Assembly: GCA_964604825.1 (NCBI GenBank)
Contig: CAZSAL010000010.1
Span: forward strand, 2,141 to 66,140
Source of the DNA: an uncultured Elusimicrobia bacterium
Lineage (GTDB): Bacteria; Elusimicrobiota; Elusimicrobia; 2-01-FULL-59-12
DNA length: 64,000 bases
Reading direction: 5' to 3'
A model generated the notes under the pieces. It did no database searches. It was not told where the DNA came from and saw only the letters and a program-made list of their open reading frames with translations. Position numbers and translations under genes: made by a program. Position 1 is the first letter of the stretch. Every line of letters starts with the position of its first letter. Positions 8,809 through 55,432 of the stretch are shown piece by piece.

Positions 8809-8895
8809 CGGAGGGAGAGGGATTCGAACCCCCGGTACCCTTTCGGGTACAAACGATTTCAAGTCGTTCGCTTTCGACCACTCAGCCATCCCTCC
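8809..8895 (-). tRNA. tRNA-Ser (anticodon TGA)
   Basis: The reverse complement reads GGAGGGATGGCTGAGTGGTCGAAAGCGAACGACTTGAAATCGTTTGTACCCGAAAGGGTACCGGGGGTTCGAATCCCTCTCCCTCCG. It has a 7-bp acceptor stem, anticodon stem AACGA/TCGTT with loop CTTGAAA giving anticodon UGA, a long variable arm (Ser type), a GTTCGAATC T-loop and discriminator G. CCA is not encoded. Confidence 0.85.
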
Positions 8896-17172: not shown

Positions 17173-17262
17173 GTCATCCCCGAATACCGCTATCGGGGAT
17201 CCATAAAATTAAAAATCCTCTATAACGACAAGGATTCCCGATTACGACCTCGGGAATGACAT
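17173..17262. repeat. two-hairpin repeat element, copy A (tcatccccga-N9-tcggggatcc ... attcccga-N8-tcgggaatgaca), downstream of rimO
   Basis: Read directly. Homologous copies at 30216-30290, 54622-54692 and 14127-14207. Confidence 0.55.
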
Positions 17263-29087: not shown

Positions 29088-29161
29088 TGGCCCGTACGGG
29101 ATTCGAACCCGTGGTCTTGTCCTTGAGAGGGACACGTCCTGGGCCACTAGACGAACGGGCC
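29088..29161 (-). tRNA. tRNA-Glu (anticodon CTC)
   Basis: The reverse complement reads GGCCCGTTCGTCTAGTGGCCCAGGACGTGTCCCTCTCAAGGACAAGACCACGGGTTCGAATCCCGTACGGGCCA. Anticodon stem TGTCC/GGACA with loop CTCTCAA, and T-loop GTTCGAATC. It is followed by the palindrome gtcgccagacgtctggcgac. Confidence 0.85.
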
Positions 29162-30215: not shown

Positions 30216-30290
30216 GTCATCCCCGAGGACTTAATCGGGGATCCAGCTATTCTACAACTGGATTCCCGCTAACGACATGCGGGAATGACA
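30216..30290. repeat. two-hairpin repeat element, copy B (tcatccccga-N8-tcggggatcc ... attcccgc-N9-gcgggaatgaca), between rmuC and the VanZ gene
   Basis: Stem 2 differs from copy A by a compensatory pair (a/t to c/g). Confidence 0.55.
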
Positions 30291-30295
30291 ACTGT

Positions 30296-31511: not shown

Positions 31512-32615
31512 TTAATTTATAAGCGAACGGTAAACATCTTCCAAGGCAAGGGAAACAACTTCGACATCAAAATACTTTTTCATCTGCTCACGACACCAGG
31601 CAGGCTGAACAGGCATGCTGCCTGCAAGCAATTCCCGCAGCGCTTTCTCAAGCGCCACGGGATCGAAGTGTTTTGGAACCATGTGGTCGCCAAAATTGGA
31701 AGCAAGGCACGCCTTGAGCGTTTCGGGCATGACCAATCCCGCTATACCGCCTTCACCTAATGCTATGACCGGAATTCCAAAAGCAAGACTTTCCATGGCG
31801 GAACGCCCTGCGGCAATGACGCCCGCAGCGCCGTTGAGAAAAGCCGGCAGATCATTTTGAAATCCCGCCAATTCAACCGTGCTCGGCGCGATTGCGGCAT
31901 TAGTCTCCCGCAGCAGCCTGGTCCATTCCTGCCGGTGCTCTTCAGGAACGTGGCCGGCTATTTGAAAATGCACCTTAGGTAAAACCGCGGCGCAATGTTT
32001 CAGCGTCGTCAGCAAAAACCTGGCAGTCTCGCGACGCCCGCCAGAGAGCCGTCCCAAGAGAACGACACGATTCTCCTTCCCCCCTTGCGGGGGAAGGTTG
32101 GGATGGGGGGTACCCCCCACCTCTGTCCTCCCCCACAAGGGGGGAGGAGGTTCTATAAAAATCCCATTTCTAATCAGAACCAGCTTCCTGATTCCTTTTG
32201 CAAAATACCGCAACAGATGCGCCTCGACCATCTCGTCGATAGCAATGGTCGCATCGCCAAGGCAGGGCCATAGTTTTGAGAAAAAATGAACAGGCGGCGG
32301 CTGGTGTATGGTTGCAACGTGAGGGATACCGGTAATCCAGGCAGCCTGCGCCGCAGCCCAGTGAGCGCGCCTGGAGTGAGAATGGATAAGATCAATTTTG
32401 TTTTTTCTGATGAAGCCTGCAATCTTCAGAGCGTTTATGAAACCGTATGGTATGGCTTTCCTTGAAATGGGTAGAGACAAATACTTCTGGCCGTAATGCA
32501 GCCGGTCGGATATCCAGAAAATCCTGTGCTTTCCCTGCCAGGCCTTTGCAAGGGTTACGCAATAAGTTTCGGATCCCGCAGGCTCGAGGCAGGACAGGAG
32601 AAAGAGGATGTTCAC
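31512..32615 (-). CDS. glycosyltransferase family 4 (GT-B) with a repeat-derived in-frame insertion
   Basis: GT4 N- and C-terminal Rossmann halves. The segment IEPPPPLWGRTEVGGTPHPNLPPQGGKE is encoded by three GC-rich hairpins at 32073-32152. Confidence 0.75.
   Translation of the reverse strand: MNILFLLSCLEPAGSETYCVTLAKAWQGKHRIFWISDRLHYGQKYLSLPISRKAIPYGFINALKIAGFIRKNKIDLIHSHSRRAHWAAAQAAWITGIPHVATIHQPPPVHFFSKLWPCLGDATIAIDEMVEAHLLRYFAKGIRKLVLIRNGIFIEPPPPLWGRTEVGGTPHPNLPPQGGKENRVVLLGRLSGGRRETARFLLTTLKHCAAVLPKVHFQIAGHVPEEHRQEWTRLLRETNAAIAPSTVELAGFQNDLPAFLNGAAGVIAAGRSAMESLAFGIPVIALGEGGIAGLVMPETLKACLASNFGDHMVPKHFDPVALEKALRELLAGSMPVQPAWCREQMKKYFDVEVVSLALEDVYRSLIN
32073..32152. repeat. three tandem GC-rich hairpins (ccttcccccc-ttgc-gggggaagg, ggggggtacccccc, cctccccc-acaa-ggggggagg) inside the GT4 gene
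   Basis: Perfect short palindromes read directly. Same family as 32631-32765, 41563-41603 and 55314-55432. Confidence 0.6.
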
Positions 32616-32630
32616 CCCACCACCTCCAGA

Positions 32631-32765
32631 CTCCTTCTCCCCTCGGGGGAGAAGGCGGGGATGAGGGGCGGTTCATCGCGGGCGATCCCCTCACCCAAAC
32701 CTCGCCAATACTTCCGGCGAGTCGCCGGACGTCTGGAGCCCTCTCCCCAAAGGGGCGAGGGAGTG
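32631..32765. repeat. intergenic cluster of GC-rich palindromic repeats (ccttctcccc-tc-ggggagaagg, ggatgagggg...cccctcaccc, ccctctcccc-aaa-ggggcgaggg) that also contains tcgccggacgtctggag
   Basis: Read directly. It lies between the GT4 start and the amidase stop. ORFs 32392..32694, 32447..32803, 32496..32843 and 32612..32794 are translations of this repeat. Confidence 0.6.
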
Positions 32766-32790
32766 AACAACATAGAGATCATCAGAAAGC

Positions 32791-34581
32791 TCATCTTTCG
32801 TAATTATGCGCCGCGAAATTTCTTATGCCCTGAACTATGGTAAGGGCCAGTCTTTCCTGGAAGCTCGGATCAAAAAGAAGAATTTCCTGTTCCGGAACGA
32901 TTATGAACGCCTGTTCCGTTAGGATCGCGGGCATTTGCCTGATCCGGCATACGGCGAAATCCGCATAGTAAAGACCATGATCTGAAAGAGGAATGTTTTT
33001 CACGTAAGCGGAATGGACTGAATCAGCCAGATCCTGGCTGTGCTGATGATAAAAATATACGCTGAATCCATTATTTATAAGAGGATTTTCTCCTTCGCCG
33101 GAAGAATTGCAGTGCACGCTTACAAAAAGCCTGGCCTGACGTGCCCAGGCGATTATTCCCCGGTCATAAAGCGGGACCTGCCTGTCATCTTCCCTTGTTA
33201 AAAACGGCTGTGCCCCCATATCGCGCAGGTGCTCGAACACGCGCTTTGCTATCTGAAGGTTGGCATCCTTTTCCATTGTCCCGTGCGGCCCGATAGCTCC
33301 TTTTTCCGTGCCGCCATGCCCGGCGTCAACCGCGATGATCATCCCCTGGAGAGTCGGCCGGAGCCATGGTTTTCGAATTTCAATTACAAGAGTGGTCCCC
33401 TCGTAGCGGACATCGTAGCCCCACCAGTTCTGGAACTTGGCGTCAATCATCAACTGGCACACATCCGGCGCTGTCTGCCTCCAGCGGATGTGGCGGATGA
33501 GCGGATCTTTTGGATCAAAACGGATCAAATCGGTCTTAGCGACAGCGCCAAAAAGAGTCAGAGTCAACGATGCGGGGTTGGCAAATTCTTCTGTACGGTA
33601 AGCAAGCATGGACTGCAGGGGGACACGCACGATAGTCGAAGACCCGCTGTAGACGGTGGTAATATTTTCCAGATAACTTATGGGCGGCGCTGTTCCCCGC
33701 GGCAGTTCGGCAACTGCGCTTTCCCTGACCCAGCCGGTTTGATTTGAAGAAAGCCGTATGAACCTTTCCCGGCCCGTCTTCCCAAGAATTTGAACACGCA
33801 TGCCTTTGTACAGGAACAGATCATATCCGCCTTCAGAACCCGTCCTGACCGGGACATTATCTTCGGTGACCATGCCGACACGCACCTGAGATGGGTCAAG
33901 AATGGTGATATGCCCTGCCGCCTGCACGTCCACGCTTCGCGCCCCATGTTTTAAAAGAATTTCAATCGTCGCCCGGCTTGCCTTATCCGTCGGCTGTATA
34001 ACATAAGTTCCTTCGTAAATTCCCCGCGCTGCCGGCAGCGCCGTCGTTCCAGTTGAGAGTTGGGGAATGCCCGTTCCGATCTCAGTCATGGGAATGTGAT
34101 GCTTTAAGCCAAGAATGGCGAAAGTGGCTTTACCGTGCGGCGAACCTTGAAATACCACGCGCAGCGTTTCCCCGGGCATAAGCTCGACATCGTCCGGCGG
34201 GTTGACGGTATCTTTCAAGATCACAACAGGACGTTCAGGCAGAGGCTTGAAACCTTCTTCCACAACGAACCTGCGCTCAAGGCGGGTGACCTGGCCATTG
34301 GGAGCCTTTGCCTCGCAGGAAAGAACCATTGGCCCTTCATGAACAGGCGCCATCGCCAGATAACCTCCCCTGGGATGTACGGGAATCATCATCCCATTGA
34401 TGGTGAGAGTGGATCCCGGCGTCACTTCGCCATAGACAAAAGTTTCCGAAAGGTTTGGCAAATGCTGGCCTTCAGCGGGATGCAAAACCGTCAGCGCTGT
34501 GCCGGTGGACGGAACAGGCTGAGCATTTGCAGTAGCTGCACAAACAAATACGAACAAACTCGCTATAAAACCAACAACCAT
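32791..34581 (-). CDS. N-acetylmuramoyl-L-alanine amidase (Amidase_3 C-terminal domain)
   Basis: IIAVDAGHGG...FVSVHCNS...E motifs. The start is set at MVVGFIASLFVFVCAATANA (signal peptide) rather than the ORF maximum at 34761. Confidence 0.75.
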   Translation of the reverse strand: MVVGFIASLFVFVCAATANAQPVPSTGTALTVLHPAEGQHLPNLSETFVYGEVTPGSTLTINGMMIPVHPRGGYLAMAPVHEGPMVLSCEAKAPNGQVTRLERRFVVEEGFKPLPERPVVILKDTVNPPDDVELMPGETLRVVFQGSPHGKATFAILGLKHHIPMTEIGTGIPQLSTGTTALPAARGIYEGTYVIQPTDKASRATIEILLKHGARSVDVQAAGHITILDPSQVRVGMVTEDNVPVRTGSEGGYDLFLYKGMRVQILGKTGRERFIRLSSNQTGWVRESAVAELPRGTAPPISYLENITTVYSGSSTIVRVPLQSMLAYRTEEFANPASLTLTLFGAVAKTDLIRFDPKDPLIRHIRWRQTAPDVCQLMIDAKFQNWWGYDVRYEGTTLVIEIRKPWLRPTLQGMIIAVDAGHGGTEKGAIGPHGTMEKDANLQIAKRVFEHLRDMGAQPFLTREDDRQVPLYDRGIIAWARQARLFVSVHCNSSGEGENPLINNGFSVYFYHQHSQDLADSVHSAYVKNIPLSDHGLYYADFAVCRIRQMPAILTEQAFIIVPEQEILLFDPSFQERLALTIVQGIRNFAAHNYER

Positions 34582-35579: not shown

Positions 35580-38500
35580 TTATTCACCGTCTGCCGCCAT
35601 GGGCAAATCTTCAACAGGTCCCGTGGAAATAATGTCTGTATCGACACCTGCACTCACCAAATCTTCCTCCGGCCAGTTGCGGCAGAGGAGTTCCGTCTGC
35701 TTGAGCACGGTTTCGGTGGCTCTTTCCTGTTTGTCCGGCGGATACCCGTGCTCGCGGAGGAGGCGTTTGATGGTGACTCGCATTCTTGCGCGCACGGATT
35801 CTTTGAGTGACCAATCAACAGCAAGATTCTGACGAACAGACTTAACGAGGTCCCTGGCGATAGCGCCAAGAACCTTGTCCCCCAAAATTTTGACGGCGCT
35901 GTCGCTGGTTTCCAGAGCGTCGTAAAAAGCCAGTTCATCTTCGGTTAAACCAAGCTTTTCACCCCTCTTGTGCGCCTCGCGCATCTCCCTGGCAAGCTTG
36001 ATAAGTTCCTCAATGACCTGAGCCGCTTCAATGGCCCGGTTGTGGTAGCGCTGAATGGTTTCCTCAAGCATTTTGGCGAAAGACCGCGACTTCACCAGGA
36101 ACTTTCGTTCCCGAATTTTAATTTCATCTTCCAGAAGTTTCCGCAGCGCTTCCGCCGCCAGATTCTTCTGAGGCATGCGCCGCACTTCATCCAGAAACTT
36201 GTCCGAGAGAATCGATATATCCGGTTTTCCCTGACCGCTCGCCGCAAAAATATCGACCACTTTGTCTGAGTAAACCGCACCGGAAACAATCTGCCGGATG
36301 GCATTATCCAGGTCCGCCGGATCCGCGCCGCCGGCCTCGGTGTTCTTGATCAAAGAGGCCTTGATCGCCTGGAAATAGCTCACCTCATTACGAACAGCCA
36401 GGGCTTTATCATGAGGAACTGACAACGCAAATGCCTGGGACATCTCCGCGACTGCCTGAAGGAAGCGCTTCTTCCCATCCTCAACCTGCTGAAGAATATA
36501 ATCCATGCCGCCGCTCACGGCCGCTACGCGTTCCCCTGCCGTTCCTTTAAAGAACTTCCCATAGTCATATTTCCACCCGCCCGAGCCCTTAGCAGCGGGC
36601 GGGTGCGGCCGGAGAGGTTTCCCAGCCACAGGTTGGGACCCTGTCGGACCGGCGAAAATACCGCGCAGCACTTCAAGTTTCTCCAGGAGTTTCGCAACAG
36701 CTATTTCCTGATCAATACCCGCAGCCTTCCGGTCCCGCTCCGAGTACTCGGCCAGGGCGGCTTTCAGCTCGTGGGCAATGCCCAGATAATCCACGACCAG
36801 CCCGCCCGGTTTATCCTTAAAAACCCGGTTCACCCGTGCAATGGCCTGCATCAAACCATGCCCGCGCATGGGCTTGTCGATATACATCGTATGGAGAGAC
36901 GGCACATCAAACCCGGTCAGCCACATATCCCGCACAATCACCAGCCTGATGGGACACTCCGGCTTTTTGAATTCGTCCCCCAGCCGCTTGCGTCGCTCTT
37001 TATCGCGGATATGTGCCTGCCACTCCGGACCGTCCGCCGCTGATCCAGTCATCACTACCTTCAGAAATCCCTTTTTATCGTCCGGATCATGCCATAGAGG
37101 GCGAAGCTTGACGATTTCGTTATAAAGGTCAACGCAGATACGGCGGCTCATGCAGACGATCAGCCCTTTGCCTTCCATGGCTTCCCGCCGTTTCTCAAAA
37201 TGCTCCACGATATCCTTTGCGATAAGCCTGATTCGCCTCTCCGCTCCAACCAATGCTTCCATGCGCGCCCACTTGGTCTTAAGCTTTCGCTGGACGTTTT
37301 CCTCTTCGCCCTCCGTGACTTCTTCAAACTGAGGATCGATCTTCGGCATTTCTTCGGGTTTGAGGCCGAGCTTGGCCAGGCGGGCTTCGTAATAAATGGG
37401 AACTGTGGCCTTATCTTCGATTGATTGATGGATATCGTAAATATCGATGTAATCACCGAAAACCGCCCGCGTGTTGCGGTCGCCTGCCTCAATCGGCGTA
37501 GCGGTGAACCCGATGAACGAGGCTTGCGGCAGGCAGTCCCGCATATGCTTAGCCAGGCCTTTAATGAAATCGTATTGGGACCGGTGCGCCTCATCCGCGA
37601 TCACAACAATATTGCGCCGATCAGAAAGCAAAGGATTCGTGTCCCGTTCGCTATTCCTTTTCGACGGGACCTGCAGCGATGAACTCATCCGCTGCAGATC
37701 ACCTTTCTGGTCTGGCAGGAACTTCTGAATCGTCGTAAATATGACACCGCCTGAGGCGCGCTTGAGAAGCTCCCGGAGATGTACCCTGCTGGTCGATTGG
37801 ATGGGCGCCTGAGCAAGAAGATCCGAACAAGGCACAAAGGTCCTGTCAAAAAGCTGGTCATCCAGATCGTTGCGATCAGTGAGAAGGACCAGGGTAGGAT
37901 TTTTCATCTCCGGATGCTGGATTATTTTCCCTGCATAAAAAACCATGGTCAGGCTTTTACCCGAGCCCTGAGTGTGCCAGACAACTCCCGCCCGCCTGTC
38001 TCCCTTGACGGCCTTGACCGTAGCTTCAATTGCCTTTTGCACCGCATGGAACTGATGATAGCTGGTCATCTTTTTGATGGTGGTTTTCTCGCCATGCTCG
38101 AAGACCGTGAAATAACGGATCAAATCCAGGAAGCGTTTCTTTTCGAACATACCCTTGATGAGCACTTCAAGCTGCGGCCGGCTTGAAGGGGCCAACTCGC
38201 GCCCGTCCACAGTCCGCCAGGGCATGAAGCGTTCCCAATCCGATGAAACAGTTCCCGCTCTTGCGGCGAGACCGTCGGAGATAATCAGCGGCCCGGCGAA
38301 CTGAAACAAAGAAGGAATTTCCTCCTTGTATGTCTCGAATTGTTTGAAGGCTTCCCGGACGGACGTTTGCTCCTTGGCAGGATTCTTCAATTCAAAGACA
38401 GCGAGCGGCAGGCCGTTCACAAAAATCACAACATCCGGCCTCCGGTTATGCTGATTTTCAATAACCGTGAACTGATTCACAACCAGCCAGTCATTAGCTT

Positions 38501-38921
38501 CAGCATCGTCAAAATCGATCAGCCGCGCATGATCAGATACCGTTCGCCCGTCGCCCTGATAATCTACCGGAACGCTTTCGATCAGATATTTATGAAACTG
38601 TTCGTTATTCTGCAGCAGGCTGGGATGTTCACTTCGCAGGACTTTACGGAAGGCATCGTCTAAAGCATCAGCAGGAATTTTCGGATTCAGCTTCGCCAGC
38701 GCCGATTTCAACCGCCCCGGCAGGACAACTTCTTCGTAGCTAGACCGCTCTGCGGGCCCATCAATCGCAACGGTGAAACCTCTTTGCGATGGTGCCGCTT
38801 CCGCTGCCGCAACAGGGAGCGGCGCAGGGGCAATGTCCGGGCCATGAGCGATAGAGTAGCCTAGGCTTTCCAGCCATTCAAGCGCGGCGTCTTCAGCGGT
38901 GGATTCGGTGATCGGGTTCAC
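35580..38921 (-). CDS. hsdR: type I restriction enzyme R subunit HsdR
   Basis: HSDR_N, the ResIII/DEAD helicase motifs ([12 protein letters not shown]-like [11 protein letters not shown]) and the C-terminal domain. 1113 aa. Confidence 0.9.
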
Positions 38922-38923
38922 AA

Positions 38924-39970
38924 CTATTTCTTTTTCCTCTTCCCGTGGGGTGGCGTAAGTTTTTTGATTTTTTCCACCACTTTATCGAAGTCGGACACCG
39001 GCTGGTTAGCTTCGATCCGCCGCCGGGTCTCCTCGTATTTCCCAAACTCGTCCTCAGCATGAGCGGCCGCGAGCTCATGCGATACCCTGCCAGCATGCGA
39101 CAGAATATTGCGTTCGTTGAACTGGAGAAAACCATCCAGTTTTTTCACCCAGTCCGCCATCTTCATCGGCGTGCGCCTGCGCGCCTGATCCTCGGCGTAA
39201 TCGAGATACATGGCGACCACGCGGTTCAACTCGCGCAGTTCTTCCTCATTCAGGTAGTTCTTGGCTACGGTAACGTCGGACCGGCGGATATGGCCTCTGG
39301 GTGCGTTCTTCCACGTAGTCAGTCCCATATTCGGCTTGCCGGCGTCCGCCCGGCCATAAATAATCTCTGCCGCCGTGTGCCCGTGAATCGCCCAATGCAG
39401 TTTGTTTTGCACTGTGGAGTAGAACGTCTGCGTGATCTCCGCCTGGGCATCATAATCGATGCTGCACTGCGCATAGATGTCGGTGATCTTCTGGTAGAAC
39501 CGCCGCTCCGAAGCCCGGATATCACGGATGCGTTCCAGCAACTCATCAAAATAATCTGCGCCCAGGTTGGCTCCGGACTTGAGGCGTTCGTCATCCATCG
39601 TAAACCCTTTGACAATGTACTCCCGCAGACGCTGTGTCGCCCAGATGCGGAATTGCGTGCCTCGTTGGGACTTCACGCGGTATCCCACAGAGATAATGAC
39701 GTCCAGGTTGTAGAACTGTGTCCGATAATTTTTCCCATCAGGGGCAGTCGTCAAGGAATCCTTGACAACTGAATCTTCAGACAATTCTTTCTCGGAAAAG
39801 ATATTTTTGATATGCAGACTGACATTTTGCTTCGTTGTTTGAAGCAACTCCGCGATCTGATTTTGAGTGAGCCAGACCGTTTCGTTTTCCAAACGTACAT
39901 CCAGCCGGGTCTGCTTATCTTCCGTCTGGTAGATTAGAATTTGAGATTGTTCAGAAGGTTCTTTCTTCAT
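38924..39970 (-). CDS. RhuM family virulence/Fic-associated protein
   Basis: The conserved RhuM core (..[17 protein letters not shown]..). It is inserted between hsdS and hsdR, and its GC is lower than the flanking genes. Confidence 0.8.
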
Positions 39971-40165
39971 TTAAATACTTCCCTCCATCAAATCTTGGCT
40001 ACACGTCCACTCAGGTAAAGATTCCTCATGCGCGATCTCTGGCCCGTGAGCGATGCGGTAGCCAAGACTTCCCATCCATTCAAGAGCGGCGGCGGCGGTG
40101 GATTCGGAGAACTTTGTAATTCTACTCATCTCTTGGGAGAAAGTTTGGGGTTTCTCCAGACCCAA
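39971..40165 (-). pseudogene. duplicated fragment of the hsdR 5' end (HSDR_N N-terminal ~45 aa)
   Basis: ESTAAAALEWMGSLGYRIAHGPEIA aligns with the HsdR N-terminus [26 protein letters not shown]. Nucleotide identity is roughly three quarters by eye. Confidence 0.5.
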
Positions 40166-40902
40166 GGTAGCGGTTTAGGTGTGTATCCGGTTAATCCCAA
40201 CTTGATTTGATTTTCGATAGCTGGACGGAGTAAGTCCAAGTTTTGACGTAGTGCATCAATATCATCCTGGAGCAATTCAAAGTCAAACGATTTCTCGCTT
40301 AAATTTACTTTAAAGGGTGACCGGATCTGAAAATGGATGGAATATTTTCCGGCTTTCCACCAAAAGTGTTTCTTGTATTCCTCTACAAGCTTATGTACTT
40401 GCTCGCTCGCCATTAATTTATCGTGATAGTTGGGTTCCGCCTTCATCAGATATGACTGATGGGCAGTCGCCTCATTCATGGGAGAAGCTACCTCCTGATG
40501 AAATTCAGTATCTTGAAATCGAACAAATTTCTGGGTCAGCATTAGTGTGCTGAGTTTGAGGGCAATTGCATCATCACTCCGCTCGACCACCTGTTTTTTA
40601 CCCATTTCATCGCTGATCTCGCTGAATTTCTCAGACATGCCCATCCAAGTTAAAACGTGTGTGTCATGGTCGGAATGACGGACGGTGACATAAATCTCGT
40701 TCAAAATCACATCTTTGCGTTCGACAGCAAGGCCCAGCCGTATATTAAGAATTGGGCCGAACGTCGTATATCCTAATTCGATCTGCTTGTTCGGAATTAT
40801 CGTCACGATCGGCTTCGCGTATGCTTTATAACCCCATCGGAATATTTGGGGAATCCAGGCAGCAGCTCCAATATATGCAGCAACATCGGCTGGGTTAGTC
40901 AT
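40126..40902 (-). CDS. hypothetical protein (258 aa) embedded in the type I R-M operon
   Basis: No recognisable motif. Low local GC. It sits in the hsdS-hsdR slot, which typically hosts abortive-infection/anticodon-nuclease-type cargo. Confidence 0.5.
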   Translation of the reverse strand: MTNPADVAAYIGAAAWIPQIFRWGYKAYAKPIVTIIPNKQIELGYTTFGPILNIRLGLAVERKDVILNEIYVTVRHSDHDTHVLTWMGMSEKFSEISDEMGKKQVVERSDDAIALKLSTLMLTQKFVRFQDTEFHQEVASPMNEATAHQSYLMKAEPNYHDKLMASEQVHKLVEEYKKHFWWKAGKYSIHFQIRSPFKVNLSEKSFDFELLQDDIDALRQNLDLLRPAIENQIKLGLTGYTPKPLPWVWRNPKLSPKR

Positions 40903-42152
40903 ATTGTTCTCCTCTGGGTTGTATTAACATGGACATGACAAAGCAAATGAATTTTCCCCGACATCAGCTTCGGCAGCAGGGCGTCGCGTATGGCGGCGAG
41001 TTTTTTGGACTGCTCTTCGTTGTTCTCGATCATTTGATCCAAAGGGTATGCGAATTGTTCAAAGGCATCTATTAACTCTTTAGGCGGTGATGCATGTTTA
41101 ATGTTGCAGAAATCATTTTTCCCAATTGATCCGAAGACAGTGCCTTCAGCTTCGAAAGATGCAAAGGATTCGTTCAGAAAATGCATCGAGTAGTAAGTGT
41201 ACGAACGGCTGCCGCTTTTATGCCGAATTGCGGCAACCCCGCGTCCAATGCAACATTCCCTCAGCGTTAAATTTATATCTCCAACTGGAGCGCGAACGCT
41301 GACAAGCGTATCACCTGCCTGCGCTCGTCTAGTAGGTGCAGTGCAATAAACGCGAGATGTTGGGTAGCGGAATCCAAAATCTGTTCGCCCTTGGTAGAAT
41401 TCCATTCCCCCTCCAACCTCATTATATGTATCGCCTGGAGGTGATTGGCCCATAGTGAGGTTAAATTCCTCACCTATCGTGCTAAGCTGCCAACCCTTCG
41501 GAATTTCGCCGAGCGGAGAGTCCTGGAAGGAATCTGGAAAGAGATCGAGGATGTCCTTATTCCACCCCTCACCCACACCCTCTCCCCCTTGGGGGCGAGG
41601 GAATTTATAAGGGCGGCCTTGCATCTTTGCGCGGACGGGATCGAAATCTACAAACCAAGACTTAAAAATCGCCCGCGCCATGGCCTCCAGCGTCGTGTTC
41701 ATCTTCCGATTCAGCTCGATCTTGTCGTCAAGCGTGCTAAGGATGGCAGCAAGTCCTACCTGTTCCTCAACCGGAGGGATTTCGACTGGCAAGCTGTAAA
41801 ACGAATCCCGGCTTGTCGAAGGAATGGCTGAACCACTATCCATTCTATTGATATCGTAAGTGAGCAGCTTGTAATACGCCCACTTCAAATCAAGTTCAAT
41901 TTTTGGCTTGAGATAAAAGGCAGTATCTATCACAAAAAAGGGCTTGGCTGAATAATGGATTCCTCGATACGCCCCTTTGCGACCGACAATGACCCCCGGA
42001 TGCGGGCACAAAGGCTCCGAGTGCATCCCGATTGGCCCATTTGTTCCATAAACCGGATATGGGCCAGTACCGTCCTCGTATCCACGAAGACTTTGGCCAT
42101 ATTCCAAAGTTACTGCATCACCCCAACGCATTTCTCTCCACTCACCCGCCAT
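40899..42152 (-). CDS. hsdS: type I restriction enzyme specificity subunit HsdS
   Basis: Two target-recognition domains, a conserved central region (FKSWFVDFDPV...LFPDSF..LGEIPKGW) and the C-terminal LPK..M motif. The central spacer carries a ~12-aa repeat-encoded insertion (PRPQGGEGVGEGW). Confidence 0.85.
   Translation of the reverse strand: MAGEWREMRWGDAVTLEYGQSLRGYEDGTGPYPVYGTNGPIGMHSEPLCPHPGVIVGRKGAYRGIHYSAKPFFVIDTAFYLKPKIELDLKWAYYKLLTYDINRMDSGSAIPSTSRDSFYSLPVEIPPVEEQVGLAAILSTLDDKIELNRKMNTTLEAMARAIFKSWFVDFDPVRAKMQGRPYKFPRPQGGEGVGEGWNKDILDLFPDSFQDSPLGEIPKGWQLSTIGEEFNLTMGQSPPGDTYNEVGGGMEFYQGRTDFGFRYPTSRVYCTAPTRRAQAGDTLVSVRAPVGDINLTLRECCIGRGVAAIRHKSGSRSYTYYSMHFLNESFASFEAEGTVFGSIGKNDFCNIKHASPPKELIDAFEQFAYPLDQMIENNEEQSKKLAAIRDALLPKLMSGKIHLLCHVHVNTTQRRTI
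41563..41603. repeat. GC-rich palindromic repeat (cccctcaccc / ccctctccccc-ttg-ggggcgaggg) inserted in-frame in the hsdS central region
   Basis: Same motif family. It encodes RPQGGEGVGEGW between the FDPV and LFPD conserved blocks. Confidence 0.55.
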
Positions 42153-42187
42153 ACCCGAGCTCCTTCAAGCGGTTGTAGTGCATTGTC

Positions 42188-43360
42188 TCACGCAGAGCGT
42201 TCCGTTCCTTCGGCTAGAATCTTGATATAAGGATCGTAAATGAAAATGCGGCCGCGAAGCTTCCCGGTAAACTCTCGGGCAATTGCAAATTTTTGTAGAT
42301 ACATCATCGCTTTGTTCACGGCAGGAAAAGAAAGTTTGAGCTCTCTTTCTGCGTCGGCCAGGGAAATAACTCCATGCTTTCTCAATAAGGTATGCACGCG
42401 CAATGCTGTCATGCCAGCCTTGCCAAGTTTTTGGATTTGATGACTATGATCTTCAAACATAGTTAAAAGTCTTTTGACGGTATCAGCCGCCTGGTTGGAA
42501 ACCTCCTCCACCCCTCGTAAATAAAAGGCCATCCACCCTTCCCAATCTCCGTGCGTACGGATTCTTTGCAGAACCTCGTTATACTCTTCCCGATGTTGCT
42601 TGAAGTGGAGACTCAAATAAAGAAGGGGCTGGGACAGCGCACCTTCTGCACAGAGAATAAAGGTGATCAATAAACGGCCCAGGCGGCCATTGCCATCGAG
42701 AAAAGGGTGAATGGTCTCAAACTGAGCATGGGCCAAGCCAGCCTTAACCAGGGTGGCAGTCTGTATTGGATCTCCATGAAGAAACTTTTCCAAGGCCCCC
42801 ATGGCAGGCATCACTTCATGCGGCGGTGGCGGCACATAGCGTGCGGTGCCGGGCCGCGTTCCACCGAACCAGTTTTGGGAACGGCGAAACTCCCCGGGTT
42901 CTTTGTCGCTACCGCGAGTATCCTTGAGCAACAGGGCGTGTATTTCTTTAAGAAGTCGAAGGCTTAGAGGGAATCCCTCTTTCAATCGCGCAAGCCCATG
43001 ACTCATAGCGGCCACATAATTCGAAACCTCCTTTACGTCGGCCAGGGGAACACCAGGAGTTTGCTTATTTTCGTAAAGCAACAAATCAGAAAGAGATGAT
43101 TGCGTCCCCTCAATTTGGGAAGAGAGGATGGCCTCCTTTCGGATGTACATGTAGAGGAATAGGGTGGGATCTGGCAAAAGGGTCGTAATTCCTTCGAGGC
43201 GACCTAATGCACGGTTGGCTCGTTCATGAGCAGCAGTATCCAACGTGACCGGTGGCGTTGGCGGCAACGGCGATGGGATGAACAAAACAAAAGGCTCAGG
43301 TCCTGACTGTTTCTCCCAGCGGCCTGATCTTATGCTTTTTATGGGGTCAAAATCTATCAT
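42188..43360 (-). CDS. Fic family protein (AMPylation/Doc-like)
   Basis: Fic motif HPFLDGNGRLGR and a C-terminal winged HTH. Confidence 0.85.
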   Translation of the reverse strand: MIDFDPIKSIRSGRWEKQSGPEPFVLFIPSPLPPTPPVTLDTAAHERANRALGRLEGITTLLPDPTLFLYMYIRKEAILSSQIEGTQSSLSDLLLYENKQTPGVPLADVKEVSNYVAAMSHGLARLKEGFPLSLRLLKEIHALLLKDTRGSDKEPGEFRRSQNWFGGTRPGTARYVPPPPHEVMPAMGALEKFLHGDPIQTATLVKAGLAHAQFETIHPFLDGNGRLGRLLITFILCAEGALSQPLLYLSLHFKQHREEYNEVLQRIRTHGDWEGWMAFYLRGVEEVSNQAADTVKRLLTMFEDHSHQIQKLGKAGMTALRVHTLLRKHGVISLADAERELKLSFPAVNKAMMYLQKFAIAREFTGKLRGRIFIYDPYIKILAEGTERSA

Positions 43361-43459
43361 ATATTTGCTATTAAATTATACACGCTTATAGTTTAATAAT
43401 CTATAGTGTTATTAAGCTTTAGGTTAATAGATAAAACACATCTACAATACATGCAGTTT

Positions 43460-45007
43460 TTAAACACGTTTCAGATTATCTCGAATAACAGCCTCCAAAC
43501 AGGCACTTTTGGCAAATTGTTCCTCTAGTTGCTTGGTGAGCCGTTTCATCTTTTCTTCAAAGGGTTCGCCGTCATCCTCCACAGCTTCCGCGCCGACATA
43601 GCGGCCGGGTGTAAGCACATGACCGTGAGAGGAAATCTCTTCCAGCCTGGCGCTTTTACAAAAACCGGGGATATCTTCGTACTTGCCAGCTTCTTTCTCT
43701 CCCCGCCAGGCATGGTAGGTTTTCGCAACGCGGGCGATTTCCTCATCCGTGAGTTCACGGTGCGTGCGATCAATCAGGTGGCTGAGCTTGCGGGCGTCAA
43801 TGAAAAGGGTCTGGCCGCGTCTATCACGAAACTTTCCATTCTTCTTGTCCCGAGCGATGAACCACAGACAGGCGGGAATCATTGCTCCATAGAAAAGTTG
43901 ACCTGGCAGGGCAATCATGCAGTCCACCAGATCGGCTTCGATGATTTTCTTGCGAATTTCGCCTTCCCCGCTGGTATTGGAAGACATCGATCCATTAGCC
44001 AATACGAAACCTGTAATGCCTGTCGGGGCCAGATGGTGAATCATGTGCTGGATCCAGGCGTAATTGGCGTTACCCGCAGGCGGCGCTCCATACTTCCAGC
44101 GCACGTCATCCCGCAAACGCTCTCCTCCCCAGTCTTTGAGGTTGAATGGGGGATTGGCAAGGATAAAGTCAGCTTTTAAATCTTTGTGCAGGTCATTGTG
44201 GAAGGTGTCCGCATTTTGAGGCCCGAGGTTGGCTTCGATCCCGCGAATGGCAAGGTTCATTTTGGCCAGACGCCAGGTTGTTGGGTTGGATTCCTGGCCG
44301 AAGATCGCGATATCGTCCCGTCTGCCGCCATGAGCTTTGATAAATTCCTCGCTCTGCACAAACATGCCGCTCGAACCGCAGCAGGGATCATACACACGCC
44401 CTTTATAAGGCTCGATCATTTCGACAAGGAGCTTTACGACGCAGCGCGGTGTATAAAATTCTCCGCCCTTTTTCCCTTCCGCGCTCGCAAATTTGCTCAG
44501 GAAGTATTCGTAGACCCGGCCAAGAATATCTTTTGAACGGCTTTCCTTGTCACCCAGGCCGATGGTGCCAATTAAATCGATAAGCTCGCCTAGCCGGTGT
44601 TTATCTAGATCAGGTCGAGCATAAATTTTCGGAAGAACCCCTTTGAGCGAAGGGTTATCCTTCTCAATGGCGACCATAGCGTCGTCAATCAGTTTGCCAA
44701 TCGTCGGCTTCTTCGCATTATCTTGAAGGCGAGTCCAGCGCGCTTCTTTTGGCACCCAGAACACATTGGCCGCAGTGTATTCATCACGGTCTTCCGGGTC
44801 AGCGCCTTTTTCCTTTGCCAGCTTCGCGCGATGTTCCTCAAAAGCGTCTGAAATGTACTTGAGAAATATGAGCCCCAACGCAACGTGTTTATACTCGCCC
44901 GGGTCCATGTGCCCGCGCATCTTGTCCGCAGCGGACCAGAGCTTTTCCTCAAACCCAAGGTTCGCGCCGTTGCCGTTTTGCTTAACAGATTTCATTTCAC
45001 GCGCCAT
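43460..45007 (-). CDS. hsdM: type I restriction-modification N6-adenine methyltransferase subunit HsdM
   Basis: HsdM N-terminal domain, SAM motif, and the catalytic LANPPFN. Confidence 0.9.
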
Positions 45008-54621: not shown

Positions 54622-54692
54622 GTCATTCCCGAAGCCTCAATCGGGAATCCAATTTCTTTTTCAATTGGATCCCCGCATACGCGGGGATGAGA
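54622..54692. repeat. two-hairpin repeat element, copy C (tcattcccga-N8-tcgggaatcc ... atccccgc-atac-gcggggatga), upstream of ndk
   Basis: Same stem sequences in swapped order. Confidence 0.5.
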
Positions 54693-55313: not shown

Positions 55314-55432
55314 CACCCTCGCCCCTTGCGGGAGAGGGTAGGGTGAGGGGTAAGGCCTCTAAGAATTTGCACTAAGGACCCCTCACCCGCGCTTTGCGCG
55401 GCCTCTCCCCAAAAGGGAGAGGCGATTAAATG
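55314..55432. repeat. intergenic GC-rich palindromic repeat cluster between the convergent ndk and tkt genes. Probably a bidirectional terminator.
   Basis: ccctcgcccc-ttgc-gggagaggg, gggtgagggg-N28-cccctcaccc, ccgcgc-tttg-cgcgg, and cctctcccc-aaaa-gggagagg. Confidence 0.55.

What the first reader, a model, noticed from the sequence alone, without database searches (positions are those of the whole stretch)
32073..32152. GC-rich palindromic repeat family colonising coding sequence: in-frame triple hairpin inside the GT4 glycosyltransferase
Three consecutive perfect palindromes encode PPPPLWGRTEVGGTPHPNLPPQGGKE within an otherwise ordinary GT4 protein. The same motif family is found intergenically at 32631-32765 and 55314-55432, and inside hsdS at 41563-41603. 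So it is an insertion of a Pro/Gly-coding palindromic element that keeps the reading frame open.
Basis: seen in the sequence. Interest (0 to 1): 0.55.

Follow-up and report, generated by a model that had tools for sequence, protein, structure and literature searches.

The report
BoxC-type triplex-motif repeat inside glycosyltransferase gene
The 80-base palindromic stretch is a back-to-back pair of a known, very widespread bacterial repeat (BoxC / "triplex motif"), sitting in frame in the flexible hinge of a sugar-transferring enzyme and read as a floppy proline/glycine loop; the same repeat turns up at the same hinge in several related bacteria and inside other housekeeping genes.

Summary
Window 32074-32148 holds three adjacent hairpins inside an intact GT4 gene (31512-32615, minus strand) and encodes PPPPLWGRTEVGGTPHPNLPPQGGKE.

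The element is not a new family. It is a head-to-head pair of BoxC/PIT/"TM" intrastrand-triplex motifs (Holder et al. 2015): C-block, complementary G-block, then a mirror-symmetric third G-block.

- **Insert, not native loop:** the linker is 21 aa in 52 of 82 homologues and 35 aa here.
- **Structure:** AlphaFold models the enzyme confidently, except the insert.
- **Recurrence:** five or six GT4 lineages, each with an insert-free sister, carry family members at this linker. One has the same element in the opposite orientation.
- **hsdS:** that copy is one TM unit (+13 aa) in the inter-domain linker, and two HsdS homologues carry their own.
- **Other genes:** the compact pair also lies in frame in UvrC, a class-I tRNA synthetase and glutamine synthetase. 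Single units lie in a kinase, a methyltransferase and an E2 acyltransferase.
- **Spread:** the motif occurs across many phyla.

Most likely it is selfish or structure-prone repeat DNA, surviving in genes only where in frame, stop-free and in a tolerant loop. How it spreads is unknown. It is a new member of a known kind, of moderate interest.

The parts
32074..32110 (+). TM unit 1 of the in-gene pair. Block 1 is CCTTCCCCC (32075-32083), loop CTTGC, block 2 is GGGGGAAGG (32089-32097), loop TTG, and the mirror block 3 is GGATGGGGG(G) (32101-32110).
   Evidence: Block 3 equals reversed block 2 with one A replaced by T, which is the purine-motif triplex rule of PMC4666352.
32113..32148 (-). TM unit 2, in inverted orientation. 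On the minus strand it reads TCCTCCCCC / CTTGT / GGGGGAGGA / CAG / AGGTGGGGG. Its third block pairs with that of unit 1 to form the central hairpin around TA (32111-32112).
   Evidence: As RNA, the whole pair folds into one long hairpin of -66.1 kcal/mol, z = -5.2.
31512..32615 (-). Host gene, a GT4 (GT-B fold) glycosyltransferase of 367 aa. The element encodes residues 156-181, in the linker between the two Rossmann-like domains.
   Evidence: Pfam. Orthologue alignment and linker lengths. AlphaFold mean pLDDT is 89.7, and the only segment below 50 is residues 161-179.
32620..32761 (.). Intergenic copy between the amidase stop (32791) and the GT4 start (32615). It has a hairpin CTCCTTCTCCCC/GGGGAGAAGG with third blocks on both sides (32620-32666), the partner arm CCCCTCACCC (32687-32696), and a terminal hairpin CCCTCTCCCC AAA GGGGCGAGGG (32739-32761).
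   Evidence: The amidase-GT4 gap is 175 bp here. It ranges from a 4-bp overlap to 12 bp in five orthologous loci (48 bp in a sixth).
41565..41601 (-). A single TM unit inside hsdS, fitting the published TMECO pattern exactly: CCCTCGCCC CCAAGG GGGAGAGGG TGT GGGTGAGGG. It encodes ..PRPQGGEGVGEGW..
   Evidence: The spacing WFVDFDP..IPxGW is 45 aa here, against 32-33 aa in 106 of 138 homologues.
40899..42152 (-). Host gene hsdS, the type I R-M specificity subunit. The TM lies between the central conserved helix and the second target-recognition domain.
   Evidence: Pfam Methylase_S. PDB matches 5ybb, 3okg and 1yf2.
55316..55423 (+). Intergenic palindromic TM pair between ndk and transketolase. It reads CCCTCGCCC CTTGC GGGAGAGGG TA GGGTGAGGGG, then a 28-nt loop, CCCCTCACCC, a 12-nt spacer, and GCCTCTCCC CAAAA GGGAGAGGC.

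Best explanation
The segment is a compact head-to-head pair of BoxC/PIT-type G/C-rich 'triplex motif' (TM) repeats. This is a non-coding, structure-prone repeat family found in many bacterial phyla.

Shown:
- Each unit is a 9-nt C-rich block, a short loop, the complementary G-rich block, about 3 nt, and a third G-rich block that mirrors the second.
- Two inverted units share a central stem.
- The pair lies in frame in the surface linker between the two domains of a GT-B glycosyltransferase.
- Most orthologues lack it.

Inferred:
- It is passively translated into a disordered Pro/Gly-rich loop. CCC and GGG runs code for Pro and Gly and contain no stop codons.
- In-gene copies are survivors of selection. 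Only insertions that are a multiple of three, stop-free (hence the compact form without the AT-richer central loop) and located in tolerant loops or linkers persist.
- The element then decays by small in-frame deletions.
- How copies arise is not known. The filled and empty sites suggest either copying into pre-existing pyrimidine-rich (Pro-codon) tracts by microhomology, or that Pro-rich linkers are themselves decayed copies.
For: Family identity:
- The architecture and sequence match the published pattern CCCTCNCCC N3-6 GGGNGAGGG N3 GGGNGAGGG and its 'palindromic' inverted-pair arrangement.
- The hsdS copy fits that pattern exactly.
- The mirror rule holds in both GT4 units.
- It also holds in 122 of 126 hairpin-bearing copies sampled from public genomes: AA 52, GG 70, discordant 4.

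Insert rather than native loop:
- The linker is 21 aa in 52 of 82 homologues and 35 aa here.
- Conserved synteny (amidase, GT4, deacetylase, VanZ) shows these are true orthologues.

Tolerated loop:
- The AlphaFold model has pLDDT 89.7 and pTM 0.87. Only residues 161-179 fall below 50.
- All invariant GT4 residues are kept.

Recurrence and independence:
- P0010 carries the same subfamily element in the opposite orientation, with a 21-nt central loop. P0053, P0024 and P0035 carry other arrangements.
- The insert-bearing proteins fall in 5-6 separate lineages, each with an insert-free sister.

Generality:
- HsdS carries +13 aa, equal to one unit, and two further homologues carry their own TM-like inserts at the same place.
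- In locus L004 a 66-nt (22-aa) pair in the deacetylase is absent from five orthologues and from two close relatives.
- The compact pair is in frame in UvrC (twice), a class-I aaRS and GlnA.
- Single units are in frame in a Ser/Thr kinase, a methyltransferase, an E2 acyltransferase linker and a MoCoBD-cytochrome c junction.

Decay: P0003 equals P0002 minus 39 nt of the element, in frame. This fits the TM-associated small deletions described in PMC4666352.
Against: - No mobilising enzyme, target-site duplication or clean insertion boundary was found.
- The GT4 net gain (14-18 aa) is smaller than the 26 aa encoded, so 'insertion' is a simplification.
- The window and P0002 elements are about 90% identical in DNA, at the same codon position and in the same orientation, although the proteins are only 57% identical and not sisters in the NJ tree. 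This is awkward both for independent insertion and for simple vertical descent.
- Recurrence at one linker could also reflect positive selection.
- Translation of the insert is inferred from the intact frame, not observed.
- Holder et al. did not detect triplex formation in vivo.
Confidence: 0.78

Rival explanations
1. The element has been recruited for a function at this position. It could act as a flexible hinge between the two GT-B domains. Alternatively it could be a very stable mRNA structure that slows ribosomes at the domain boundary (aiding co-translational folding) or stabilises the transcript. On this view the recurrence at the same linker reflects positive selection.
For: - Family members occupy the same inter-domain linker in at least 5-6 GT4 lineages, and the same HsdS linker in three homologues.
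- The mRNA fold is -66 kcal/mol with z = -5.2.
- Window and P0002 copies are about 90% identical in DNA, while the flanking sequence is far more diverged.
Against: - Most orthologues, including the nearest sisters, function without it.
- Orientation, arrangement and translated sequence differ between lineages, so no common peptide is conserved.
- P0003 shows it decaying.
- The same element sits in unrelated loops of unrelated proteins.
- High sequence identity is a property of the family everywhere, even across phyla, so it does not indicate local constraint.
- PIT elements showed no promoter or terminator activity in E. coli (PMC4666352).
Confidence: 0.1
2. It is a REP/REPIN or MITE in the strict sense: a miniature transposon mobilised in trans by a RAYT (Y1 transposase) or an IS transposase. 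The three-block 'triplex' look would then be incidental.
For: - Inverted-pair organisation resembles REPINs and BIMEs.
- Copies cluster locally and form tandem arrays (L103 with a 141-bp period, L080).
- One window copy has GTAG just before the G-rich arm (55338-55341).
- Intragenic GTAG/CGTC REPs are documented (PMC3733652).
- The motif also occurs on IMG/VR viral contigs.
Against: - The GTAG tag is absent from the other window copies, which have GCGG or GTTG.
- No target-site duplications appear at the clean filled/empty pair.
- REP families are usually species-specific, whereas this unit is nearly identical across phyla.
- The mirror covariation of block 3 with block 2 (122 of 126) is not a REP or MITE feature.
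- Holder et al. found no link to mobile elements in E. coli.
- No search for a RAYT gene was made here.
Confidence: 0.1
3. The Pro/Gly segment is a native, vertically inherited linker of this GT4 subfamily, and its palindromic DNA is coincidental.
For: Several orthologues in the same part of the tree have Pro-rich linkers, for example ELPPSPAITPKNNPK and TIPPSPAPRPPSSLS.
Against: - 52 of 82 homologues have a 21-aa linker with no palindrome.
- The DNA matches intergenic copies in the same window and copies in other phyla.
- Shuffled-sequence expectation is zero.
- One orthologue carries the same element inverted.
Confidence: 0.02

Closest known systems
BoxC / PIT element / TMECO intrastrand triplex motif (Bachellier et al. 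1990s; Hoyne et al. 2000; Holder et al. 2015, PMC4666352)
   Same: - Same three-block architecture, with block 3 mirroring block 2.
- Same core sequence: the hsdS and 55316 copies are CCCTCNCCC..GGGNGAGGG..GGGTGAGGG.
- Same tendency to occur as inverted 'palindromic' pairs, in many copies, and with small deletions between relatives.
   Different: - In E. coli the motif is reported as always intergenic. Here 3 of the 6 TM units the finder detected (2 of 4 loci) are inside genes and in frame.
- The GT4 copy is a CCTTCCCCC/GGGGGAAGG/GGATGGGGG variant, not the TMECO consensus.
- The host is probably Elusimicrobiota, inferred from synteny and one named homologue. It is not a proteobacterium.
- The central loop is collapsed to 2 nt.
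Rickettsia palindromic elements (RPE; Ogata et al. 2000, as summarised in PMC3733652 and PMC2229807)
   Same: Palindromic repeat inserted in frame into functional protein-coding genes, translated as an extra surface segment, and also present intergenically.
   Different: RPEs are 100-150 bp, AT-richer, restricted to Rickettsia, and have no triplex-type mirror block. There is no sequence similarity.
GTAG/CGTC-tagged REPs, including intragenic ones (Di Nocera et al. 2013, PMC3733652)
   Same: Short GC-rich palindromes, often in inverted dimers and mostly intergenic. A minority lie inside known genes, notably replication and repair genes; compare UvrC here.
   Different: There is no consistent GTAG or CGTC tag, no known RAYT association, a third mirror block is present, and the sequence is conserved across phyla.
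CCCTCTCCCXX(X)GGGAGAGGG palindromes of Enterobacter sp. 638 (PMC2869309)
   Same: Identical hairpin core. That genome has 100 copies, often in duplicate or triplicate.
   Different: They are described only at the 3' ends of genes and presumed to be terminators. No in-frame copies are reported.

Membership tests
BoxC / PIT / TM intrastrand triplex motif | 9-nt C-rich block, a 3-6 nt loop, and a complementary 9-nt G-rich block with at most one mismatch. | tested here: met
   All window copies. In the GT4 units both 9-bp stems are perfect.
BoxC / PIT / TM intrastrand triplex motif | A third G-rich block about 3 nt downstream that mirrors block 2 (G opposite G; A or T opposite A). | tested here: met
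   Six units in the window pass with at most one mismatch, against 0 in 20 shuffles. Mirror covariation holds in 122 of 126 sampled copies. The two subtypes could partly reflect shared descent.
BoxC / PIT / TM intrastrand triplex motif | Exact TMECO consensus CCCTCNCCC N3-6 GGGNGAGGG N3 GGGNGAGGG. | tested here: inconclusive
   Met exactly by the hsdS copy (41565-41601). The 55316 copy has a 2-nt second loop. The GT4 units are the CCTTCCCCC/TCCTCCCCC variant, so they belong to the G/C-rich TM class but not to the narrow consensus.
BoxC / PIT / TM intrastrand triplex motif | Multi-copy, dispersed, often in inverted 'palindromic' pairs. | tested here: met
   Four loci in 64 kb, three of them pairs. 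There were 218 units in 0.85 Mb of loci retrieved by the motif scan.
BoxC / PIT / TM intrastrand triplex motif | Single strand folds into a stable triplex in vitro (CD/NMR). | not testable with these tools
   Only the sequence rules could be checked.
BoxC / PIT / TM intrastrand triplex motif | Intergenic location (stated for E. coli). | tested here: not met
   The GT4 and hsdS copies are in frame inside genes. This is a descriptive property in one species rather than a structural definition.
REP / REPIN (RAYT-mobilised) | Conserved GTAG (or CGTC) tetranucleotide at one end of the palindrome. | tested here: not met
   GTAG appears only at 55338-55341. The other copies have GCGG or GTTG at that position.
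REP / REPIN (RAYT-mobilised) | A cognate RAYT (Y1 transposase) gene in the genome, flanked by the repeats. | not tested
   Only 13 window ORFs were scanned with Pfam. The rest of the genome is not available.
MITE | Terminal inverted repeats plus target-site duplication flanking the element. | tested here: not met
   The overall inverted symmetry is present. However, the filled/empty comparison L004 versus L001/L131 shows no flanking direct repeat, and the native bases are partly replaced.
RPE-like in-frame palindromic insertions (a phenomenon, not a sequence family) | The element is absent from orthologues, keeps the frame, and the host protein is otherwise intact. | tested here: met

The most novel reading that the evidence does not exclude
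TM pairs may be a general, recurrent source of Pro/Gly-rich inter-domain linkers and surface loops in bacterial proteins. On this reading they are copied preferentially into pyrimidine-rich (Pro-codon) tracts by a homology- or structure-driven replication or repair process rather than by a transposase. Many 'native' Pro-rich linkers would then be decayed TM copies. That would link a long-unexplained, cross-phylum repeat (BoxC, known since the 1990s with no known mechanism of spread) to protein linker evolution.
Probability: 0.15. Interest if true: 0.7.

Novelty: new member of a known kind. Interest (0 to 1): 0.42.

Why it matters
BoxC/TM repeats have been known for about 30 years, yet their function and mode of spread remain unknown. 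They have been described as intergenic.

This window and its relatives show that they also live inside essential genes, in frame, at loops and domain hinges, and repeatedly at the same hinge. That has three consequences:
- It explains a class of odd Pro/Gly-rich inserts ('GEGRGEG', 'PSPxGRG', 'PPLWGRTEVGG') seen in predicted proteins from uncultured bacteria.
- It warns annotators that such segments are repeat-derived.
- It supplies natural filled, empty and partly deleted site trios (P0002/P0003/P0013 for GT4; L004 versus L001/L131 for the deacetylase). From these the insertion and deletion mechanism could be worked out.

Tried and rejected
- **Rfam:** no family at gathering threshold over the whole window except two tRNAs. 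Permissive hits over 32000-32850 are only generic hairpin (miRNA-like) noise.
- **Peptide census:** a search with the insert peptide failed. The 26-aa query was too short, and a 40-aa query found no candidate sharing three words, not even the source protein, so that search was wasted.
- **Solved HsdS structures:** too distant in the central region to show the 13-aa insertion. The representative-library search showed it instead.
- **Organism name:** cluster look-up gave no organism names. The Elusimicrobiota assignment rests only on one named homologue (P0021) plus shared synteny, and on a near-identical element in an Elusimicrobia MAG (L071).
- **Missing DNA:** DNA for the insert-free sister P0029 was not available.
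- **Long ORFs in high-GC loci:** long stop-to-stop ORFs spanning TMs in L126, L103, L037, L015, L089, L077, L010 and L048 were judged from their low-complexity, Arg/Gly/Ala/Pro-rich translations to be spurious and were not counted as in-gene copies; no Pfam scan was run on them. L100 and L057 are chance pattern matches without the hairpin, inside real membrane proteins.
- **Dating by identity:** I considered using window-P0002 DNA identity to date the insertion. I rejected this because the family, loops included, is near-identical even across phyla.

Full report
**1. The observation**

Window 32074-32148 contains three adjacent GC-rich hairpins:
- CCTTCCCCC-CTTGC-GGGGGAAGG
- (GA)TGGGGGG-TA-CCCCCCA(CC)
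- TCCTCCCCC-ACAAG-GGGGGAGGA

They lie inside the minus-strand ORF 31512..32615. This ORF is a 367-aa GT4 glycosyltransferase (Pfam Glyco_transf_4 3e-17, Glyco_trans_1_4 1e-8). On the coding strand the stretch reads PPPPLWGRTEVGGTPHPNLPPQGGKE.

- An intergenic copy at 32620-32761.
- An intergenic copy at 55316-55423.
- A copy at 41565-41601 inside an ORF with a Methylase_S domain, flanked by hsdM and hsdR.

Chance is excluded. A junction pattern hits three times against 0.00 expected. A three-block motif finder gives six units against zero in 20 shuffles.

The identical protein is on record from four independent sources (NCBI/ENA, two JGI contigs and GEM), so it is not an assembly artefact.

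**2. What the element is**

The copies share an architecture that is more than a palindrome. Each has a 9-nt C-rich block, a 3-6 nt loop, and the complementary G-rich block. About 3 nt further on there is a second G-rich block that is the mirror image of the first, with A allowed to become T.
- GGGGGAAGG is followed by GGATGGGGG.
- GGGAGAAGG is followed by GGATGAGGG.
- GGGAGAGGG is followed by GGGTGAGGG.

A full-text search for these strings led to Holder et al. 2015 (PMC4666352). They describe exactly this as the BoxC / PIT / 'TMECO' intrastrand triplex motif, with the pattern 5'-CCCTCNCCC N3-6 GGGNGAGGG N3 GGGNGAGGG. According to that paper:
- The motif occurs 3610 times in 262 proteobacterial genomes.
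- Copies are often paired in inverted orientation.
- It forms a triplex in vitro, but this was not detected in vivo.
- It is not linked to known mobile elements.
- It is associated with small local deletions.
- In E. coli it is 'always located intergenically'.

The same hairpin core was noted as 100 palindromic repeats in Enterobacter sp. 638 (PMC2869309).

The hsdS copy fits the published pattern exactly. The GT4 insert is a head-to-head pair of two variant units whose third blocks pair with each other to give the 'middle palindrome'. Rfam has no model for it.

**3. Distribution**

- 126 of 143 matches carry the full upstream complementary arm, so they are true units.
- The taxa include Alpha-, Beta- and Gammaproteobacteria, many Dehalococcoidia/Chloroflexota, Nitrospirota, Verrucomicrobiota, Planctomycetota, Elusimicrobia, Bacteroidales, Terriglobia, Vampirovibrionales and others.
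- In those 126, the variable base of block 2 and the mirror-equivalent base of block 3 agree in 122 (AA 52, GG 70). This matches the triplex rule, although two inherited subtypes could contribute.
- The motif also occurs on IMG/VR viral contigs, where 65 of 134 matches have the hairpin.

**4. Is it an insertion in GT4?**

Eighty-four close homologues were found. Their loci share the order amidase, GT4, polysaccharide deacetylase, VanZ (and RmuC), so they are orthologues.

Between the conserved LIRNGI and GRLSG motifs the linker lengths are as follows:

| Protein(s) | Linker length |
|---|---|
| 52 of 82 homologues | 21 aa (overall range 17-24) |
| Window protein | 35 aa |
| P0002 | 36 aa |
| P0010 | 49 aa |
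| P0053 | 50 aa |
| P0024 and P0035 | 32 aa |

An AlphaFold model built on the alignment is confident (pLDDT 89.7, pTM 0.87). The sole exception is residues 161-179, the insert, between the last strand of the N-domain and the first strand of the C-domain.

The net gain (14-18 aa) is less than the 26 aa encoded. The event therefore replaced or was followed by loss of native linker codons, and exact boundaries cannot be set.

**5. Recurrence at the same linker**

The linker DNA of the long-linker orthologues shows family members in different forms:
- P0002 has the same compact pair in the same orientation. It is about 90% identical in DNA although the proteins are 57% identical, and identity drops abruptly outside the element.
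- P0010 has the same subfamily, with the same loops CTTGT and ACAAG, but in the opposite orientation and with a 21-nt central loop.
- P0053 has two hairpins with the third-block arms on the outside.
- P0024 and P0035 each have one CCCTCTCCC hairpin enclosed by CCCTCACC/GGTGAGGG.

In an NJ tree built without the linker, these proteins fall in five or six places, each next to an insert-free sister. P0003 equals P0002 minus 39 nt of the element, in frame, which shows decay.

Because family members are near-identical across phyla, loops included, sequence identity cannot separate shared descent from independent gain for window versus P0002. The inverted copy and the different arrangements do require several events.

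**6. Other genes**

- **HsdS:** the distance WFVDFDP..IPxGW is 32-33 aa in 106 of 138 homologues and 45 aa here. That is +13 aa, equal to one 39-nt unit. Homologues P0125 (..HPLPLGEGRGEGS..) and P0147 (..HPSPSGRRDGDEG..) carry their own TM-like inserts at the same place.
- **Deacetylase in locus L004,** a relative of P0002's genome: the neighbouring deacetylase has a 22-aa, 66-nt TM pair absent from five orthologues and from two close relatives.
- **Genome sample:** among the 126 sampled units, four lie in frame in Pfam-verified proteins. These are a Ser/Thr kinase domain, a methyltransferase domain, the lipoyl-to-E3-binding linker of an E2 acyltransferase, and the junction of a MoCoBD subunit fused to cytochrome c.
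- **Metagenome scan for the compact pair (2-nt central loop):** ten further loci were found. The pair is in frame in UvrC (two contigs), a class-I aminoacyl-tRNA synthetase, glutamine synthetase (two contigs) and a molybdopterin/Fe-S protein. It also forms the C-terminal tail of PurD.

In-gene copies of this family are therefore common in uncultured lineages. They sit in loops, linkers or termini.

**7. Mechanism**

Shown:
- The family identity and the absence from orthologues.
- The location in a region predicted to be disordered.
- The recurrence, the decay by in-frame deletion, and the lack of stop codons.

Inferred:
- The element is passively translated.
- In-gene copies are what selection leaves behind: 0 mod 3, stop-free, compact, and in tolerant sites.

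How copies arise is unknown. There is no consistent GTAG tag and no target-site duplication at the clean filled/empty pair. Two observations bear on origin:
- The empty deacetylase site (CCTTTCCCTTCGA) matches the element's block 1 plus loop (CCTCTCCCTTCGG) at 11 of 13 positions.
- The insert-free GT4 linker of P0013 resembles the C-rich halves of P0002's element.

Either copies are templated into pyrimidine-rich tracts by microhomology, or Pro-rich linkers are decayed copies. These are two anecdotes, not a test.

**8. Rivals**

- **A selected hinge or translational-pause function.** The mRNA fold is -66 kcal/mol with z = -5.2, so this cannot be excluded. It is disfavoured by insert-free sisters, the lack of a conserved peptide, the decay, and occurrence in unrelated proteins.
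- **A RAYT- or IS-mobilised REP or MITE.** This is not supported by the tags or flanks, but no transposase search was possible.
- **A native loop.** This is refuted.

**9. Comparison and verdict**

By sequence the element is a member of the BoxC/TM class. By behaviour it resembles Rickettsia palindromic elements and the intragenic GTAG/CGTC REPs of Di Nocera et al. (PMC3733652), which also favour repair genes.

Three things appear new within the literature I could search:
- This family lives in frame inside genes.
- It recurs at the same linkers.
- Its phylogenetic reach extends beyond Proteobacteria and Cyanobacteria.

It is a new member of a known kind. Interest is moderate, at 0.42.

Noticed in passing
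window 17174-17261, 30217-30292, 54623-54692: A second, unrelated intergenic repeat family occurs as inverted pairs: GTCATYCCCGA-loop-TCGGGRATCC ... GGATYCCCG-loop-CGGGAATGAC. The same family appears to encode the C-terminal tails 'TPAKAGV...' and 'LDSRFRGNDG' of several GT4 orthologues. It also sits beside TM units in Dehalococcoidia loci L024, L032, L074 and L080.
   Followed up: partly
L134:3133-4542, L133:3-677, L136:36-2813, L139:1-1068, L137:4032-7139, L132:1583-2794: The same compact TM pair lies in frame in UvrC (two contigs), a class-I aminoacyl-tRNA synthetase, glutamine synthetase and a molybdopterin/Fe-S protein. It also forms the C-terminal tail of PurD. In UvrC it is read in the same frame as in GT4 (PPPLRGRTEVGGAPHPNLPPRGGKG).
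   Followed up: yes
L004 9374-9454: A clean 66-nt (22-aa) tail-out TM pair sits in the polysaccharide deacetylase next to GT4. It is absent from close relatives L001 and L131. The empty site matches the element's C-block plus loop at 11 of 13 bases.
   Followed up: yes
window 32616-32790: The amidase and GT4 genes range from a 4-bp overlap to 12 bp apart in five orthologous loci (48 bp in a sixth). Here they are separated by 175 bp that consists largely of a TM pair. One operon therefore carries two TM pairs about 480 bp apart.
   Followed up: yes
window 35580-45007: The type I R-M locus runs hsdR, RhuM-family gene, unknown 258-aa ORF, hsdS, Fic/DOC gene, hsdM. Extra genes are thus embedded between the R-M subunits.
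   Followed up: no
L042:129-4043 (Variovorax sp. KBW07): A molybdopterin-binding oxidoreductase subunit and a multi-haem cytochrome c are joined into one 1305-aa open frame across a TM pair. This is possibly a repeat-mediated gene fusion.
   Followed up: partly
L103 (three units at a 141-bp period), L048, L080 (six units in 3 kb): TM pairs occur in tandem arrays and dense local clusters in some genomes. This suggests local duplication.
   Followed up: no
IMG/VR loci L142 onwards: The TM junction motif is present on at least 120 viral contigs, and 65 of 134 matches have the full hairpin. Holder et al. reported no association with phages in E. coli. Some of these contigs may be prophage or host flanks.
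   Followed up: partly
window 29088-29161 and 8809-8895: Two tRNA genes on the minus strand are the only Rfam hits at gathering threshold in the window.
   Followed up: no
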